From Escherichia phage vB_EcoD_Fulano1: a stretch of 51,759 bases of DNA. The notes below the pieces were generated by a model. The model saw only the letters and a list, made by a program, of their open reading frames with translations, had not been told where the DNA came from and made no database searches. The stretch lies in sequence record OL539459.1, one strand, 5' to 3'. Positions 50-50,006 of this stretch are shown here, piece after piece. Made by a program: the position numbers and the translations under genes. How positions within the stretch are numbered: position 1 is the stretch's first letter; each line of letters opens with the position of its first letter.

Positions 50-571
50 ATGGCTAAAAACGTTGAGCCAGCAGTAAAGGCTTGCAATTTTAAAAAACTA
101 TATAATAAGCAATATGGCGATATTGCAAAAATGACAAAGGCGCACAAGTACACGCCGGAACAGGTATTTGATCTGGCTGTACGTTACTTTACGTGGGCGG
201 AGGAAAACCATATACAGGCTGCGGAAACGGCATCCTTTCAGGGTGACGTATACGAAAGCAAGATTCACAAGCCGCGAGTGTTCACCTTAAACGGATTCCG
301 ATTATTCGCTGGCCTTTCTGCTTCCGTACTTGAAAAATGGCGACGTGAGCCAGGATTCAGCGATGTTATGGACTTTATCGACGGCGTTGTTTACGAGCAA
401 AAATTCCAGCTTGCTGCAAACAATATTGTTAACGCCGGATTCATTGGTAAGGAGATCGGCATTGAAAAGCCAGCTACCGTTACCATTGAGAATAACACAA
501 GCGCCAGCGTTGACGCTGTAACGGCGGAGGAAGTCAAAGAGGCGGTAATTGACATTCTGGAGAAGATATAA
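50..571 (+). CDS. terminase small subunit (T1-like)
   Basis: ORF track 11..571 trimmed to ATG 50 behind RBS AAGGAGGG (36-43); stop overlaps start of large terminase (ATGA at 571); size and position typical of TerS. Confidence 0.5.
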   Translation: MAKNVEPAVKACNFKKLYNKQYGDIAKMTKAHKYTPEQVFDLAVRYFTWAEENHIQAAETASFQGDVYESKIHKPRVFTLNGFRLFAGLSASVLEKWRREPGFSDVMDFIDGVVYEQKFQLAANNIVNAGFIGKEIGIEKPATVTIENNTSASVDAVTAEEVKEAVIDILEKI

Positions 572-28984: not shown

Positions 28985-29458
28985 TTAGCAATTAGTGCTT
29001 TCAGGTTTATACAGGAATCCGCCAGGTTCATAATCTGACATTCTTACCACTCGCAACATTTCACGCTTATCACATCTCTTTGTGAGCGGTTTGCCATTGG
29101 AATCAAATCGCAGGTCTGGACGACAGAATGATGCGCGATAGCCTTGACATCCATATTTTTTGTAATCGTTATGCACCTTTTGAGCGCCAGCGGCTGAAAT
29201 CATACCACGAACGCGCCACTGATTTACAGTTTGCTGGCTAACGTTAAGACGTTTTGCCATTGCTGACACGCTTCCGTAATACTCAATAAGGATGTCAAGT
29301 CGCGCTTTTAGTCCGGCGCGCACTTCATCTTTTAAAACATAGTATCCCGTAGGGCGCTTGCGCTTCTTCTTGTCCTTGCCTCTTCGAGTTCCGTTATTGC
29401 CATTAATTGTGCGCTTGTCAATCTTTCCTGTTGATACTGCGATTCGTTGCTCTTTCAT
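28985..29458 (-). CDS. HTH DNA-binding protein (putative regulator)
   Basis: 157 aa; basic N-terminus RRGKDKKKRKRP; helix-turn-helix-like MAKRLNVSQQTVNQWR; divergent from helicase gene. Confidence 0.5.
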   Translation of the reverse strand: MKEQRIAVSTGKIDKRTINGNNGTRRGKDKKKRKRPTGYYVLKDEVRAGLKARLDILIEYYGSVSAMAKRLNVSQQTVNQWRVRGMISAAGAQKVHNDYKKYGCQGYRASFCRPDLRFDSNGKPLTKRCDKREMLRVVRMSDYEPGGFLYKPESTNC

Positions 29459-32779: not shown

Positions 32780-33037
32780 ATGCAGAAAGAAAGAAGAGTT
32801 TTACTTAATGAAGATGGCGAATTTCTTTTGTATCGCGCTATGGTATGCGATGCAATTGATAAAAACCCTAACGTGAAAAAGATGATTGATTGCGATCCGT
32901 GGGAATTTTCAAGCGCATTAGATATGAGCTTTGAGGAGACAAAAAAACTCCCGCTTGAAAAATGGCACGAACAAATCAGAAATGACATGCAAGAATTTGT
33001 CGATTCTTGGAATTTTCAGAACGGAATGATCCACTAA
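32780..33037 (+). CDS. hypothetical protein
   Basis: ORF track 32432..33037 trimmed to ATG 32780 to remove overlap with dam. Confidence 0.4.
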   Translation: MQKERRVLLNEDGEFLLYRAMVCDAIDKNPNVKKMIDCDPWEFSSALDMSFEETKKLPLEKWHEQIRNDMQEFVDSWNFQNGMIH

Positions 33038-33056
33038 TAGCACTTTTTGTTAAAAC
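33037..33056 (+). promoter_or_regulatory. recurrent element ATAGCACTTTTTGTTAAAAC
   Basis: directly after stop TAA 33035-33037; hairpin 33057-33075 then CATAAT 33075-33080. Confidence 0.45.
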
Positions 33057-36646: not shown

Positions 36647-37025
36647 ATCTTTTCCTTAGAGCTTCTATTTGTTGTCTATTAGCATTTGACGTAAACAATT
36701 CTTCATCGCTCATTTCTCCGATCCTTAAAACATCCCTTACCCATTCGTTTTGCATACCTTCCAGGCTGTAAAGTTCAAACGAGAATGGGCGATTTGCTGA
36801 TCCTTTCTTACACCAGAACTTTCCACCAACTCCATCAAGATAACCAGCGGTCATCATTCTTGAGCAAAATTCTTTTGAAACGGCAGTTGCAAACATCCTC
36901 GGCGTAAATCCTGCGGCCCTTGCGAGCCGCTCACATTCTCTATGCTGAAATATAAATTTCGCTATATGTTGACGTGTAAAATAGTCAAAGGATTCGCACC
37001 ACCTATATAGGTCAAGAATAAACAA
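36633..37025 (-). CDS. hypothetical protein
   Basis: 130 aa ORF wedged between two HNH genes. Confidence 0.4.
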   Translation of the reverse strand: MFILDLYRWCESFDYFTRQHIAKFIFQHRECERLARAAGFTPRMFATAVSKEFCSRMMTAGYLDGVGGKFWCKKGSANRPFSFELYSLEGMQNEWVRDVLRIGEMSDEELFTSNANRQQIEALRKRYGLE

Positions 37026-40006: not shown

Positions 40007-40062
40007 CGTTTATTTCTCCTTTCGTTTCGGTGAAGTGATTATGCCAGGCTTTTACACCTGGC

Positions 40063-40081
40063 TTTTAACAAAAAGTGCTAT
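40063..40081 (-). promoter_or_regulatory. recurrent element ATAGCACTTTTTGTTAAAA
   Basis: overlaps stop TAG of methyltransferase gene; hairpin GCCAGG..CCTGGC then CATAAT then ATG 40006. Confidence 0.45.
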
Positions 40082-41581: not shown

Positions 41582-41860
41582 CTAATTAATACCCACCACG
41601 TTAAAACTTACAGCTTTTGTTCTAAACACATACGCTTCAACAGCATCACCAAATACACGAATTTTTCCATAGCCGTACTGCGCATTCATATTTCGCCAAA
41701 CCGTCCTGTTAGAGCAGAGCGCGCTACCAGTCTTAATAAGCGTATCCATCTCTTTTCTTAGATCGCGATAGTCCAGCCAGAATCTAAAGGCACGCTGTTT
41801 AATTCGCGCCGCCTTGATTTTTTCTCTTGCGCTATTGAAATCATTCTTTTCGTATGCCAT
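41582..41860 (-). CDS. hypothetical protein
   Basis: 92 aa ORF in leftward early block. Confidence 0.35.
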   Translation of the reverse strand: MAYEKNDFNSAREKIKAARIKQRAFRFWLDYRDLRKEMDTLIKTGSALCSNRTVWRNMNAQYGYGKIRVFGDAVEAYVFRTKAVSFNVVGIN

Positions 41861-42057
41861 TAAATGATCTCCATGTATGTTTCAAAGCCATTTAACTTGA
41901 ACAGGCCGTTTTCACATTTGCGCACGTTCCAAGTTAGCCCTGAGTGGTACGCCTCCATATCATCAAGGTCAATGGTGATTTCAGCACCTTTCTTAAAGAT
42001 TCCTTTCTCGTGAGTGGTGTCACGCTGTACAACTTTAACATCAACTTGATTTTCCAT
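41860..42057 (-). CDS. hypothetical protein
   Basis: 65 aa, RBS GAGGA, downstream of recurrent element. Confidence 0.35.
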   Translation of the reverse strand: MENQVDVKVVQRDTTHEKGIFKKGAEITIDLDDMEAYHSGLTWNVRKCENGLFKLNGFETYMEII

Positions 42058-42658: not shown

Positions 42659-42927
42659 TTCTTGATCTCCTCAGCAATAAACTTCAGGACTTTGCGCAAA
42701 AACACTTCATTATTGATGGTCGCTGGCAATTCCTCTTTCACTTCTTGCGGCAGGTAAACGTTGCCATGCCAGGTTAAGCAATCGTAGTTGATACGATAAG
42801 AGCAAAGCCACTCGCAATCGTTATCCGCTTCCCAAATGCAGAGTTGCAGAACATCACCGAAATCCTCAACAGTCAGATCCAGACCGTGACGCTTTGCAAA
42901 GTTGAAAGTGGTTTTGCTGATGTTCAT
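42655..42927 (-). CDS. hypothetical protein
   Basis: 90 aa ORF. Confidence 0.35.
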   Translation of the reverse strand: MNISKTTFNFAKRHGLDLTVEDFGDVLQLCIWEADNDCEWLCSYRINYDCLTWHGNVYLPQEVKEELPATINNEVFLRKVLKFIAEEIKK

Positions 42928-42975
42928 TGCTATCTCCTGATGGCTATCTCGTTTCGATGAGATAACTATACCAGG

Positions 42976-43212
42976 TTATTCCGATCGCGCTTTAACAAAA
43001 AGTGCTATTTGCTGACTGGTCATTATTCCATCTATTCCATTAATCAGGAATAACAGGAATAATTCATTCGCGATCACCTGGATTGTGAGACTTTGAGTTT
43101 GATCAATTTTAATCAGTTGATTAACTTTTTGTGTGGAGGGGATAGAGAAACGCGGCCCTCTTGCGTCCTTTCCAGCAATCCTGGCGCGCGCATCTGTTAT
43201 TTCTGTTCCCAA
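42976..43212 (-). CDS. questionable ORF (may be non-coding leader)
   Basis: 78 aa; contains dyad repeat 43022-43063 and recurrent element 42991-43008. Confidence 0.2.
   Translation of the reverse strand: MGTEITDARARIAGKDARGPRFSIPSTQKVNQLIKIDQTQSLTIQVIANELFLLFLINGIDGIMTSQQIALFVKARSE
42991..43008 (-). promoter_or_regulatory. recurrent element ATAGCACTTTTTGTTAAA
   Basis: ~70 nt upstream of ATG 42927; not at a stop codon here. Confidence 0.35.
43022..43063. repeat. dyad-symmetric element with ATTCC/GGAAT half-sites
   Basis: ATTATTCC (43022-43029), ATTCC (43034-43038), centre ATTAAT, GGAAT (43047-43051), GGAATAAT (43056-43063). Confidence 0.5.
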
Positions 43213-43549
43213 TGTTATCTCAAATAAGCCTCCGCACTTTTAGATAACAGAAACGGCGTTCATCAACAAAAAGAACAAAATAAAATTTATATATATACCC
43301 ATAAAATCAATAAGTTAGTTATATATGTATTTATATTTGTTATTTACTGTTATGCTTGTTCTGTGGGTATGTGGTGGGTGTTGATGATTCCTTCATTTAA
43401 CATTTGTACTTTTTATGCGGTTATATATATAGATTTTGCGGCATTATCGAGACAACCAGTGAACGAGATTGAACGAGCTTTAAAATCAATCACTTGCGCG
43501 CAATTTTGTTATCGCGTCAAAAAAAGATGTTATTAGAACGAAAAATCAG

Positions 43550-43578
43550 TTGACTACCTGGCTGTGAGTATTGATAAT
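43550..43578 (+). promoter_or_regulatory. sigma70-like promoter TTGACT-17-GATAAT for rightward early operon
   Basis: TTGACT 43550-43555, GATAAT 43573-43578, 33 nt before ATG 43611. Confidence 0.55.
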
Positions 43579-43610
43579 GCACGCAGACAAAACGAAAAGG
43601 GAGACAGCAC

Positions 43611-43910
43611 ATGACAAAAATGCTTGCAATAAACCGAAAACTTGAAGTGAAAGAGATGTCACAAGATGATATTGATGATTTGGCGCGCGGCATGACAACA
43701 GGTTACATGCGGAGAATTGTCAATCACTTGATTAACTCTGAACGAAATAAGGCCGTATACATCAGCATAAATCACGCTGGAGGGAATGCTGCATCAATGC
43801 GACAGATGATTAACAACGTGGCAAAAGAGTTAAATGTTGATGTTAAGACGTTTGTTGTTGATGGATTCCTGGGCCTGGTAATACTTGAAGTTAACGAAGC
43901 GTTTGCATAA
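43611..43910 (+). CDS. hypothetical early protein
   Basis: 99 aa, first gene behind TTGACT-17-GATAAT promoter, RBS AAGGGAG. Confidence 0.4.
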   Translation: MTKMLAINRKLEVKEMSQDDIDDLARGMTTGYMRRIVNHLINSERNKAVYISINHAGGNAASMRQMINNVAKELNVDVKTFVVDGFLGLVILEVNEAFA

Positions 43911-44383: not shown

Positions 44384-44649
44384 TGAATAAGGCATTAATT
44401 GGAGTTTTGATTGCAATTGCTACCCTGACCGGATGCGAAAAGGCATCTGAATCAACGGTAGTCGTAGGCGTGGAGTCAGATTTTAAAGTCGGTCGCCTGT
44501 TTACTGTTGATGGATGCACTGCGTACCGATTCTATGATAACGGTCACGCGATCTATTACACCAACTGCAAGGGCACGACTAGCTGGGAAGTGTCGAAAAG
44601 CAACGGCAAGGTAACGACAACAGAACATATGACAGTGGAGACAAAATAG
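44383..44649 (+). CDS. lipoprotein (signal peptide near-identical to Cor-like gene)
   Basis: GTG start overlapping previous stop; MNKALIGVLIAIATLTGC lipobox. Confidence 0.5.
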   Translation: MNKALIGVLIAIATLTGCEKASESTVVVGVESDFKVGRLFTVDGCTAYRFYDNGHAIYYTNCKGTTSWEVSKSNGKVTTTEHMTVETK

Positions 44650-44665
44650 CACTTTTTGTTAAAAC
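44646..44665 (+). promoter_or_regulatory. recurrent element ATAGCACTTTTTGTTAAAAC
   Basis: overlaps stop TAG of lipoprotein gene; CATAAT 44684-44689. Confidence 0.45.
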
Positions 44666-49737: not shown

Positions 49738-49793
49738 TTCCGCGAGGGCATTTGTTAAAGTGTCCTCATTGAAGCGAAACAGAGGAAATAAAA

Positions 49794-50006
49794 ATGAAAA
49801 TTCGAATCACCAGGGTTGACATTGACCGTAACGACGGAAGCATTACCCTTGAGCAATGCGGATTCAAAGTTGGTGACATTGTAGAGGTTGACGGATTCTT
49901 TCGCGATGGTTCTTACTGCGTGTTAGCAATCCGAAACACAGAAGAAATTCGAATCGGTGATAACATCGGCGTAAACCATGACGAATGCGAGGTAGTAGAA
50001 GAATGA
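49794..50006 (+). CDS. hypothetical protein
   Basis: 70 aa, RBS GAGGAA. Confidence 0.35.
   Translation: MKIRITRVDIDRNDGSITLEQCGFKVGDIVEVDGFFRDGSYCVLAIRNTEEIRIGDNIGVNHDECEVVEE

What the first reader, a model, noticed from the sequence alone, without database searches (positions are those of the whole stretch)
43022..43063. 42-bp dyad element with four ATTCC/GGAAT half-sites beside control region B
ATTATTCC-ATCT-ATTCC-ATTAATC-AGGAAT-AACA-GGAATAAT is symmetric about a central ATTAAT, with outer and inner half-site pairs. This resembles an operator for a dimeric or tetrameric DNA-binding protein, or an origin-type site. It lies inside the doubtful ORF 42976..43212, which may therefore be non-coding.
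Basis: seen in the sequence. Interest (0 to 1): 0.5.

Follow-up and report, generated by a model that had tools for sequence, protein, structure and literature searches.

The report
Conserved four-site dyad beside phage pac
A 42-bp symmetric DNA element with four GGAAT half-sites in a T1-like coliphage is real, non-coding and strongly conserved, and it is most likely a protein-binding array belonging to the still-undefined DNA-packaging start (pac) region of the T1 phage family.

Summary
The window is Escherichia phage vB_EcoD_Fulano1, a T1-like Hanrivervirus. The dyad at 43022-43063 is exactly as described and is the only four-site GGAAT/ATTCC cluster in the genome.

The ORF that contains it (42976..43212, minus strand) is not a gene. 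It has in-frame stops in many relatives, no third-codon-position excess of substitutions and no family match.

Among 20 distinct relatives the half-sites are almost invariant (diversity 0.01, against 0.16-0.18 at synonymous sites), while one spacer is hypervariable. That is the signature of a protein-binding site.

The dyad is the left end of a continuously conserved block, 43022-43195. Two independent GenBank records end inside that block, at 43135 and 43143. T1 coordinate 1, the mapped TLS pac site and a PhageTerm peak in phage MSK fall at the equivalent place.

GGAAT arrays occupy the same position in T1, Klebsiella Webervirus and other contigs. TLS, Warwickvirus and Rtp-like phages carry different repeat arrays there.

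My best reading is a pacL-like recognition arm of the packaging initiation site (about 0.4). The main rival is an operator for the adjacent leftward promoter (about 0.25). The binding protein is not identified, and small terminase does not co-vary in a simple way with the motif.

The parts
43022..43063 (.). 42-bp dyad: ATTATTCC-A-nn-TATTCC / ATTAATCA / GGAATA-ACA-GGAATAAT
   Evidence: 35 of 42 positions are invariant in 20 distinct relatives, mean diversity 0.038.
43025..43029 (.). Half-site 1 (ATTCC, outer left)
   Evidence: One variant, in Henu8 (ATTCA).
43034..43038 (.). Half-site 2 (ATTCC, inner left)
   Evidence: Invariant in 20 sequences.
43047..43051 (.). Half-site 3 (GGAAT, inner right)
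   Evidence: Invariant in 20 sequences.
43056..43060 (.). Half-site 4 (GGAAT, outer right)
   Evidence: One variant, in pSf-1 (AGAAT).
43031..43032 (.). Hypervariable 2-nt spacer between the left half-sites (TC, CA, GC, AC or CC)
43022..43195 (.). Continuously conserved non-coding block, 91-99% identical in 63 Hanrivervirus records. The dyad is its left end.
   Evidence: Diversity is 0.038, 0.06 and 0.097 along the block, against 0.32 and 0.25 in the non-coding DNA on either side.
43011..43021 (.). Hypervariable linker between box and dyad. The mosaic junction with Warwickvirus-type phages lies at 43011.
43109..43124 (.). Second palindrome, TTAATCA-NN-TGATTAA, with invariant arms and a variable 2-nt centre. 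The minus strand at 43110-43122 reads AATCAACTGATTA, which fits the IHF core WATCAANNNNTTR (consensus recalled from memory). TTAATCA also forms the centre of the GGAAT dyad (43040-43046).
   Evidence: (D19).
43127..43150 (.). Conserved G-rich motif TTTTGTGTG|GAGGGGAT|AGAGAAAC, the inferred packaging cleavage zone. The haarsle record ends at 43135/43136 and the G29-2 record at 43143/43144.
   Evidence: The method used for G29-2 is in PMC6563267. Related motifs occur in PeterMerian, T1, TLS and MSK.
42989..43010 (-). First leftward copy of the T1-family 21-nt repeat (aaATAGCACTTTTTGTTAAAGC), which looks like a promoter upstream element.
   Evidence: The repeat is described in PMC11447400.
42965..42970 (-). 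-10-like hexamer TATAGT, 18 nt after the box. Predicted transcription start near 42958, which puts the dyad at about -64 to -105.
   Evidence: inference.
42976..43212 (-). Spurious ORF (78 aa) that overlaps the element; not a gene.
50..571 (+). Small terminase (TerS) gene, P22 gp3-like, PF16677. It is the candidate binding protein.

Best explanation
The dyad is a sequence-specific protein-binding array. It forms the promoter-proximal, non-encapsidated arm (pacL-like) of the phage's packaging initiation (pac) region.

The proposed mechanism has four steps.
1. A DNA-binding protein occupies the four GGAAT half-sites. Small terminase is the obvious candidate; an accessory phage or host factor is possible.
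2. The inner pair (TATTCC-N8-GGAATA) is bound as an inverted repeat. The outer sites, 9 bp away, are bound by further protomers.
3. Together with the TTAATCA-NN-TGATTAA palindrome (an IHF-like core) 45 bp to the right, this builds a nucleoprotein complex.
4. The complex directs the large terminase to cut about 72-80 bp right of the dyad, around 43135-43143, and headful packaging then runs rightwards.

Shown: the element is real, unique, non-coding and under strong purifying selection at the half-sites. It is physically continuous with the conserved block in which genome records end. Equivalent arrays sit at the same place in other T1-like lineages.

Inferred: that the block is pac, that the record ends reflect the cut, who binds the element, and the stoichiometry.
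For: 1. **Non-coding and constrained.** Diversity is 0.038 over the dyad and 0.01 at the 20 half-site positions. It is 0.16-0.18 at third codon positions of the neighbouring genes and 0.23-0.32 in flanking non-coding DNA. A spacer is hypervariable.

2. **Unique in the genome**, as expected for a pac site.

3. **Linked to the right-hand block.** Conservation runs without a break from the dyad to 43195. An 11-bp hypervariable linker separates the dyad from the promoter box. Warwickvirus-type phages share the promoter and first gene at 94-97% identity, but similarity stops exactly at 43011 and they lack the dyad. The dyad therefore travels with the right-hand module.

4. **Packaging start maps here in five cases.**
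   - The G29-2 record ends at 43143. Its authors linearised genomes where reads ended abruptly, or otherwise arranged them by published relatives (PMC6563267).
   - The haarsle record ends at 43135. I estimate about 1e-3 expected pairs of record ends that close together inside this block by chance.
   - T1 coordinate 1, the start of its annotated 2.8-kb terminal repeat, lies 40 bp right of T1's own GGAAT array.
   - TLS coordinate 1, restriction-mapped pac, lies about 115 nt right of its first leftward box (PMC11447400).
   - The MSK PhageTerm peak at 36,862 (forward) lies about 150 nt right of its box (PMC8421802).

5. **Same architecture, lineage-specific sequence.** 44 T1- or Webervirus-like contigs carry box-ATTCC-N14-ATTATTCC-N7-9-GGAAT-N3-4-GGAATA, with spacers that vary. 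At the same spot TLS has two tandem AGACCGATTGGTCT palindromes. Warwickvirus has five TAATCA repeats about 10-11 bp apart. MSK has TTGCA repeats.

6. **Co-occurrence with one TerS allele.** TerS is at least 95% identical in 62 records and the block is present in 63. Between Hanrivervirus and Warwickvirus, TerS is 74% identical against 91% for TerL. The differences concentrate in the putative helix-turn-helix (HTH) block, which is 53% identical.
Against: - TerS does not co-vary simply with the motif. T1 (52% identical) and Webervirus (49%) carry GGAAT arrays although their putative recognition helices differ from the window's and from each other. PeterMerian (74%) lacks GGAAT.
- Lineages without GGAAT still have the G-rich cut-zone motif, so GGAAT is not universally needed.
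- A second motif (TGATT/AATCA) is enriched in this region in all lineages and could be the real TerS site.
- The distance from the array to the G-rich motif varies (about 75, 105 and 245 bp). The distance to the promoter box is short in every lineage (overlapping to 14 bp).
- Record ends are indirect evidence. The haarsle library was Nextera-type, and T1 coordinate 1 may be approximate.
- No binding or cleavage data exist.
Confidence: 0.4

Rival explanations
1. The dyad is an operator or upstream regulatory site for the first leftward promoter. A dimeric or tetrameric regulator, phage or host, binds the GGAAT sites at about -64 to -105 in this phage. In T1 and Webervirus it overlaps the upstream end of the promoter box. 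It represses or activates this one transcription unit.
For: - The array always abuts the first leftward 21-nt box. It is 14 bp away here and overlaps the box (GGAATAGCA) in 43 of 44 T1- or Webervirus-like contigs, while its distance to the G-rich motif varies.
- The box has a -10-like hexamer 17-18 nt downstream in 15 of 17 copies, so it is very probably a promoter element.
- The inner pair TATTCC-N8-GGAATA has the size and symmetry of a classical HTH-dimer operator.
- In contig L019 an extra gene has been inserted, but the dyad still sits next to a box promoter.
Against: - Warwickvirus-type phages have an almost identical box, promoter and first gene without the dyad, with the junction exactly at the box edge.
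- In Hanrivervirus a hypervariable linker separates dyad and box, while conservation is continuous to the right.
- The first leftward gene differs between the GGAAT lineages.
- The only recognisable phage regulator (Cro-like, 28985..29458) has nearly the same recognition helix in lineages with and without GGAAT.
- No window ORF has a presence/absence pattern that matches the motif.
Confidence: 0.25
2. The dyad is an initiator-binding array of a replication origin, or a site for the first early protein. The initiator would be a phage protein such as the product of the adjacent first rightward gene (DUF7174), and the AT-rich stretch at 43270-43440 would be the unwinding element.
For: - The dyad lies in the roughly 600-bp non-coding region between divergent early operons, next to an AT-rich stretch with TATATA inverted repeats.
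- The exchanged module in Warwickvirus includes DUF7174, which is 26% identical between the two phages against 70-94% for flanking genes.
Against: - The sites are inverted rather than phased direct iterons.
- DUF7174 diverges widely within Hanrivervirus (46-97% identity) while the dyad stays invariant.
- DUF7174 of the window is closer to those of lineages without GGAAT than to the T1 or Sanco proteins.
- The sequence between the block and the AT-rich region is variable.
- The fold matches are weak.
Confidence: 0.12
3. The element is a structural feature only: a cruciform or hairpin in DNA, or a stem-loop in a non-coding RNA, selected for structure rather than for a protein-recognition sequence.
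For: The dyad folds well as single-stranded DNA (z = -5.1). The 206-nt block has modest RNA folding z-scores of -2.7 and -2.2.
Against: - There is no Rfam match.
- No compensatory changes occur. The two arm variants (Henu8, pSf-1) break pairing without compensation.
- The half-site sequence itself (GGAAT) is kept across subfamilies while spacing and loop change. That argues for sequence readout.
- The predicted leftward transcript starts downstream of the block.
Confidence: 0.05
4. The dyad is part of a real small protein-coding gene (42976..43212, minus strand), and its symmetry is a by-product of the repeated codons LFL-LFL and GI-DGI.
For: An ORF of 78 aa exists. KarlJaspers, aaroes, slyngel, grams and morffagbaw each annotate some ORF here.
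Against: - The annotated ORFs differ in frame and extent. JLBYU41, Henu8, 2019SD1, vojen and BEK7 annotate none.
- In-frame stops occur in morffagbaw, Henu8, A15a, pSf-1, vojen, aaroes and A134.
- There is no codon-position bias: 29/23/23.
- There is no PHROG family.
Confidence: 0.02

Closest known systems
Bacillus phage SPP1 pac (pacL - pacC - pacR), from my own knowledge
   Same: Both are multipartite packaging start sites. Short repeated small-terminase binding boxes lie on the non-encapsidated side of a separate cleavage zone some tens of bp away, and packaging is unidirectional and headful.
   Different: The SPP1 boxes are phased direct repeats bound by G1P, and binding is demonstrated. 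Here the sites form a dyad of four GGAAT half-sites. No binding is shown, and a right-hand arm has not been identified.
Phage P1 pac and lambda cosB (R sites plus IHF site), from my own knowledge
   Same: Both have clusters of short recognition repeats on either side of, or beside, the cut. They include inverted copies and a host IHF bend site between recognition site and cut. Here an IHF-like core lies at 43110-43122, between the dyad and the cut zone.
   Different: The P1 repeats are TGATCA/G hexamers controlled by Dam methylation, and the lambda R sites bind gpNu1. The sequences are unrelated, and TerS here is P22 gp3-like (PF16677). The IHF match is not conserved in all relatives; only the palindrome arms are.
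HipB operators (TATCC-N8-GGATA) and classical Cro/CI-type operators, from my own knowledge
   Same: The inner pair TATTCC-N8-GGAATA has the same half-site/N8/half-site geometry and lies upstream of a promoter. Several sites are arrayed side by side.
   Different: The half-site sequence differs. No adjacent cognate HTH gene exists. The element does not overlap the -35/-10 elements in this phage, and lineages with the same promoter lack it.
T1-family 21-nt intergenic repeat and previously proposed T1/TLS pac motifs (PMC11447400; PMC8421802 citing Wietzorrek 2006)
   Same: They lie in the same genomic region, the non-coding stretch between the divergent small-gene clusters where pac has been mapped in T1 and TLS.
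   Different: Published proposals are AGATTT (by resemblance to P22 pac) for TLS and ATATA repeats for T1. I found no description of the GGAAT array or of the conserved block 43022-43195 in the searchable library.

Membership tests
pac site of a headful-packaging phage | Lies at the start of the packaging series (a physical genome end maps there) | tested here: inconclusive
   All evidence is indirect. Two record ends fall at 43135 and 43143. T1 and TLS coordinate 1 and the MSK PhageTerm peak fall at the equivalent place. No read-level data exist for this phage.
pac site of a headful-packaging phage | Single copy in the genome | tested here: met
   It is the only four-site GGAAT/ATTCC cluster in the window. 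T1 has one cluster; Sanco's two reported windows overlap at a single locus. There is one place per record in 190 Klebsiella phages.
pac site of a headful-packaging phage | Bound specifically by the small terminase | not testable with these tools
   The co-variation proxy is ambiguous. The TerS HTH-like block differs between Hanrivervirus and Warwickvirus, but it is not shared among the GGAAT lineages.
pac site of a headful-packaging phage | Sufficient to confer high-frequency packaging or transduction on foreign DNA | not testable with these tools
   This needs a plasmid transduction assay.
Transcriptional operator (Cro/CI/HipB-type) | Inverted-repeat half-sites with a conserved sequence and a free spacer | tested here: met
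Transcriptional operator (Cro/CI/HipB-type) | Overlaps or directly abuts core promoter elements of the regulated promoter | tested here: inconclusive
   The dyad lies at about -64 to -105 here, 14 bp from the box. It overlaps the box edge in T1 and Webervirus. The transcription start is predicted, not mapped.
Transcriptional operator (Cro/CI/HipB-type) | A cognate regulator whose presence or specificity tracks the site | tested here: not met
   No window ORF is shared only with GGAAT lineages. The recognition helix of the Cro-like regulator is the same with and without GGAAT.
Iteron-type replication origin | Several phased direct repeats next to an AT-rich unwinding element and an initiator gene | tested here: inconclusive
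   The sites form a dyad made of 9-bp tandems. The AT-rich region lies about 200 bp away across variable sequence. No initiator has been identified.
Protein-coding gene | Open frame and codon-position substitution bias conserved in relatives | tested here: not met
   stops in 7 or more relatives and a 29/23/23 distribution; no family.
Known RNA family (Rfam) | Match to a covariance model | tested here: not met
   no match at E <= 1 in 42700-43800.

The most novel reading that the evidence does not exclude
The position immediately right of the first leftward promoter box holds an interchangeable 'packaging identity' cassette in T1-like phages. The cassettes seen are GGAAT dyads (T1, Webervirus, Hanrivervirus), AGACC/GGTCT tandem palindromes (TLS), phased TAATCA repeats (Warwickvirus) and TTGCA repeats (Rtp-like). 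They would be swapped by recombination at the conserved promoter box. Each would set which terminase or accessory factor can start packaging, and so isolate co-infecting relatives from one another. The GGAAT cassette would be read by a factor other than the TerS helix-turn-helix, possibly a conserved host protein, which would explain why it survives 50% TerS divergence.
Probability: 0.15. Interest if true: 0.7.

Novelty: new member of a known kind. Interest (0 to 1): 0.5.

Why it matters
T1 is one of the seven classic T phages, yet its pac site has never been defined at the sequence level. Published suggestions (ATATA repeats; AGATTT by analogy with P22) are weak.

This work delimits a 175-bp ultra-conserved non-coding block with a four-site dyad, a second palindrome and a G-rich zone where genome records end. 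It also shows the matching architecture in other Drexlerviridae. That gives a concrete candidate which can be tested directly.

A defined pac site matters in three ways:
- understanding generalised transduction by T1-like phages;
- engineering these common therapeutic and contaminant phages;
- annotation, since the spurious ORF over the element is annotated as a gene in several GenBank records.

Tried and rejected
- **Coding hypothesis:** rejected.
- **Rfam scan of 42700-43800:** nothing found.
- **RNA folding of the block:** only modest z-scores and no covariation.
- **TerS co-variation:** I aligned TerS from the window, PeterMerian, T1, Sanco and MSK and found no signature shared by the GGAAT lineages.
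- **Presence/absence profile:** I compared all window ORFs of 45 aa or more across T1 and Sanco (with GGAAT) and PeterMerian and MSK (without). No ORF tracks the motif.
- **Cro-like regulator (28985..29458) as binder:** its recognition helix is conserved regardless of motif, so it is unlikely.
- **Host transcription-factor consensus sites recalled from memory** (DnaA, ArgR, RcsB, IclR, NanR, HipB, CRP, Fis): none fits the orientation and sequence. These are leads only, not tests.
- **Literature searches for a defined T1-family pac sequence or for the GGAAT element:** none found. The T1 genome paper (Roberts 2004) is not held in the library.

Full report
**Identity of the window.** The window matches Drexlerviridae of the genus Hanrivervirus (KarlJaspers, morffagbaw, pSf-1 and others). 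One of its proteins is 100% identical to a protein of Escherichia phage vB_EcoD_Fulano1, whose contig is 51,759 bp. The window starts 49 nt before the small terminase gene (50..571, PF16677 GP3_package). The finding lies in the roughly 680-bp gap between a leftward cluster of small genes (last start codon at 42927) and a rightward cluster (first gene at 43611).

**The observation.** The 42-bp element is present exactly as described.
- Its arms, 43022-43038 and 43047-43063, are 14/17 complementary with an 8-nt centre. Each arm is a 9-bp tandem.
- ATTCC-N4-ATTCC occurs 3 times in the window against 0.14 expected, and two of those are this element.
- No other place in the genome has four GGAAT/ATTCC sites within 60 bp.

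**Coding or not.** The minus-strand ORF 42976..43212 reads the dyad as LFLLFLINGIDGIM, but it is not a gene.
- In 15 aligned relatives the frame is interrupted by stops at different positions, and the start is not conserved. Single-base indels occur only in 2019SD1, possibly sequencing errors.
- Variable sites fall 29/23/23 on codon positions 1/2/3.
- The flanking real genes hit PHROG families; this ORF hits none.
- GenBank annotators call different ORFs here, or none.

**Conservation.** I compared 20 distinct Hanrivervirus sequences.

| Region | Mean pairwise diversity |
|---|---|
| 20 half-site positions | 0.01 |
| Dyad, 43022-43063 | 0.038 |
| 43064-43134 | 0.06 |
| 43135-43195 | 0.097 |
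| Third codon positions of the two neighbouring genes | 0.16-0.18 |
| 11-bp linker left of the dyad, 43011-43021 | 0.32 |
| Core promoter and leader, 42928-42988 | 0.23 |
| Right of 43195 | 0.25 |

- The inner half-sites never vary.
- Each outer half-site has one variant in one phage, and neither variant is compensated.
- The two bases between the left half-sites take five different values.
- The 185-bp stretch 43016-43200 is 91-99% identical in all 63 records that contain it.

This is the pattern of sequence-specific protein recognition, not of an RNA or DNA structure. Rfam gives no match.

**Surroundings.**
- Immediately to the left, on the minus strand, lies a copy of the 21-nt repeat aaATAGCACnnnTTGnTAAAA. 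The TLS paper describes this repeat as being of unknown function (PMC11447400).
- The window has 17 copies. In 15 of them a -10-like hexamer follows the 20-mer after 17-18 nt, so the repeat is very probably a promoter element.
- For this copy the -10 is TATAGT (42970-42965). The predicted start is near 42958, which puts the dyad at about -64 to -105.
- To the right the conserved block contains a second palindrome, TTAATCA-NN-TGATTAA (43109-43124). Its arms are invariant and its centre is variable, and it has an IHF-like core.
- Further right is the G-rich motif TTTTGTGTGGAGGGGATAGAGAAAC.

**Packaging start.** Five indirect lines place the start of packaging 115-150 nt right of the first leftward box in T1-like phages.
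1. The G29-2 record ends ...GGAGGGGAT|AGAGAAAC, which is window position 43143/43144. Its authors linearised genomes where reads ended abruptly, or otherwise arranged them by published relatives.
2. The independent haarsle record ends 8 bp away, at 43135/43136.
3. T1's record starts, with its annotated 2.8-kb terminal repeat, 40 bp right of T1's own GGAAT array.
4. TLS coordinate 1 was placed by restriction mapping of the pac fragment. It lies about 115 nt from the TLS box, just before a GTGAGTGAGT motif.
5. PhageTerm put the start of phage MSK at 36,862, forward. That is about 150 nt right of its box, just after GTGGTGAGTGAGTG...GATGGATGG.

A paper on SU57 also states that pac of T1-like phages lies in this untranslated region but has not been identified.

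**Other lineages.**
- T1 has ATTCC-N14-ATTATTCC-N9-GGAAT-N4-GGAATAAT at -87 to -40 from its coordinate 1. The outermost site overlaps the box.
- The same layout matches a single place per record in 190 Klebsiella Webervirus genomes.
- An IMG/VR pattern scan gave 44 box-associated contigs. In these the spacers vary in sequence and length (7-9 and 3-4 nt). The outer ATTCC, which was not part of the search pattern, is present in 43 of 44.
- Other lineages carry different arrays at exactly this position:
  - TLS has two tandem AGACCGATTGGTCT palindromes, again four half-sites.
  - Warwickvirus (PeterMerian, L029) has five TAATCA repeats about 10-11 bp apart.
  - MSK and L037 have TTGCA repeats.
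- Similarity between the window and Warwickvirus-type phages is 94-97% in the first leftward gene and promoter, and it stops exactly at 43011.

**Who binds the dyad?** I could not identify the protein.
- TerS is at least 95% identical in 62 records, close to the 63 that hold the block.
- TerS is 74% identical in Warwickvirus, against 91% for TerL. The differences concentrate in a putative helix-turn-helix block.
- However, the T1 and Webervirus TerS proteins (52% and 49% identical) carry different residues in that block although they share GGAAT.
- No window ORF is shared only with the GGAAT lineages.
- The Cro-like regulator next to the primase gene keeps its recognition helix in all lineages.
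- TGATT/AATCA is enriched in this region in all lineages and may be a separate recognition motif.

**Weighing the readings.**
- The element is certainly a constrained, non-coding, unique, operator-like binding array.
- Three things tie it to the packaging block on its right: continuous conservation with the block in which genomes end, the hypervariable linker, and the mosaic junction on the promoter side. I therefore favour a pacL-like arm of pac (0.4).
- Its constant adjacency to the promoter box in every lineage, its variable distance to the G-rich motif, and the lack of TerS co-variation keep the promoter-operator reading alive (0.25).
- An origin or early-protein site (0.12), a purely structural role (0.05) and coding (0.02) are less likely.

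**Novelty.** I found no description of this element or of a sequence-defined T1-family pac site in the library I could search. It is a new example of a known kind of element, not a new kind. Its value is that it turns the open question of T1 pac into a specific, testable locus.

Noticed in passing
window: 17 copies, e.g. 42989-43008(-), 44646-44665(+), 33037-33056(+), 40062-40081(-): The T1-family 21-nt repeat is listed as an open question in PMC11447400. Its core GCACTTTTTGTTAAA fits the MarA/SoxS/Rob marbox consensus GCAHWWWWTGYYAAA (as printed in PMC6900184) at 15 of 15 positions. It sits 17-18 nt upstream of a -10-like hexamer in 15 of 17 copies, which is the class II marbox geometry (forward orientation, overlapping the -35). 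There are 19 such 20-mers in the window against 0-3 in shuffles. T1-like phages may drive most early and middle operons through host Rob/MarA/SoxS or a phage mimic. I found no paper making this link.
   Followed up: partly
window 43109-43124: A second palindrome, TTAATCA-NN-TGATTAA, has invariant arms and a hypervariable 2-nt centre in 20 relatives. The same heptamer forms the centre of the GGAAT dyad (43040-43046). The minus strand fits the IHF core consensus, which I recalled from memory.
   Followed up: partly
window 43127-43150; L022/L023, L024/L025: Two independent GenBank records (G29-2 and haarsle) break 8 bp apart inside the conserved motif GTGTG|GAGGGGAT|AGAG. Related G-rich motifs lie near T1 and TLS coordinate 1 and the MSK PhageTerm peak.
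   Followed up: partly
L151 (TLS 49790-49830): At the position equivalent to the dyad, TLS has two tandem copies of the 14-bp palindrome AGACCGATTGGTCT. That is four half-sites of a different sequence.
   Followed up: no
L090 (PeterMerian 41715-41850); L029, L032, L034: Warwickvirus-type phages replace the whole region right of window 43011 with five TAATCA repeats about 10-11 bp apart. They keep the box, promoter and first leftward gene at 94-97% identity. The mosaic junction sits exactly at the promoter box.
   Followed up: partly
[not shown]
   Followed up: partly
window 28985-29458(-): A 157-aa protein next to the primase gene has a Cro/YdaS-type helix-turn-helix (PF14549/PF15943; PDB 5w8y, 3bd1). 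Its recognition helix is conserved in T1, Webervirus, Warwickvirus and Rtp-like phages. It is a candidate binding protein for a family-wide site such as the 21-nt box.
   Followed up: partly
L146:1141-1205, L106:1251-1290, L104:12563-12591 (plus L112, L113, L129, L132, L138, L139): Unrelated, low-GC IMG/VR contigs carry very similar arrays. For example, one has three ATTCC at 9-bp spacing followed by three inverted GGAAT at 10-bp spacing, in AT-rich intergenic DNA. The context was not examined.
   Followed up: no
window 42946-42960 and downstream of most box promoters: A conserved leader, CAYCGAAACGA, lies between the -10 and the Shine-Dalgarno sequence of many box-promoter transcripts. This promoter-plus-leader segment also matches 164-178-kb Enterobacter and Klebsiella phages (H42, H47, H48, H82; L044).
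   Followed up: no
(MG0656xx records): About 20 'UNVERIFIED Campylobacter phage' GenBank records are Hanrivervirus coliphage genomes at 84-95% identity. They are probably contaminants or have mislabelled hosts.
   Followed up: no
window 41860-42057(-): A 65-aa protein matches PF25180, 'phage antiviral trigger protein Gp54', at E = 8e-39.
   Followed up: no
window 43270-43440: An AT-rich stretch contains several TATATATA-centred inverted repeats (I1-I5). It corresponds to the 'ATATA repeats' once proposed as T1 pac and could be a DNA unwinding element.
   Followed up: no
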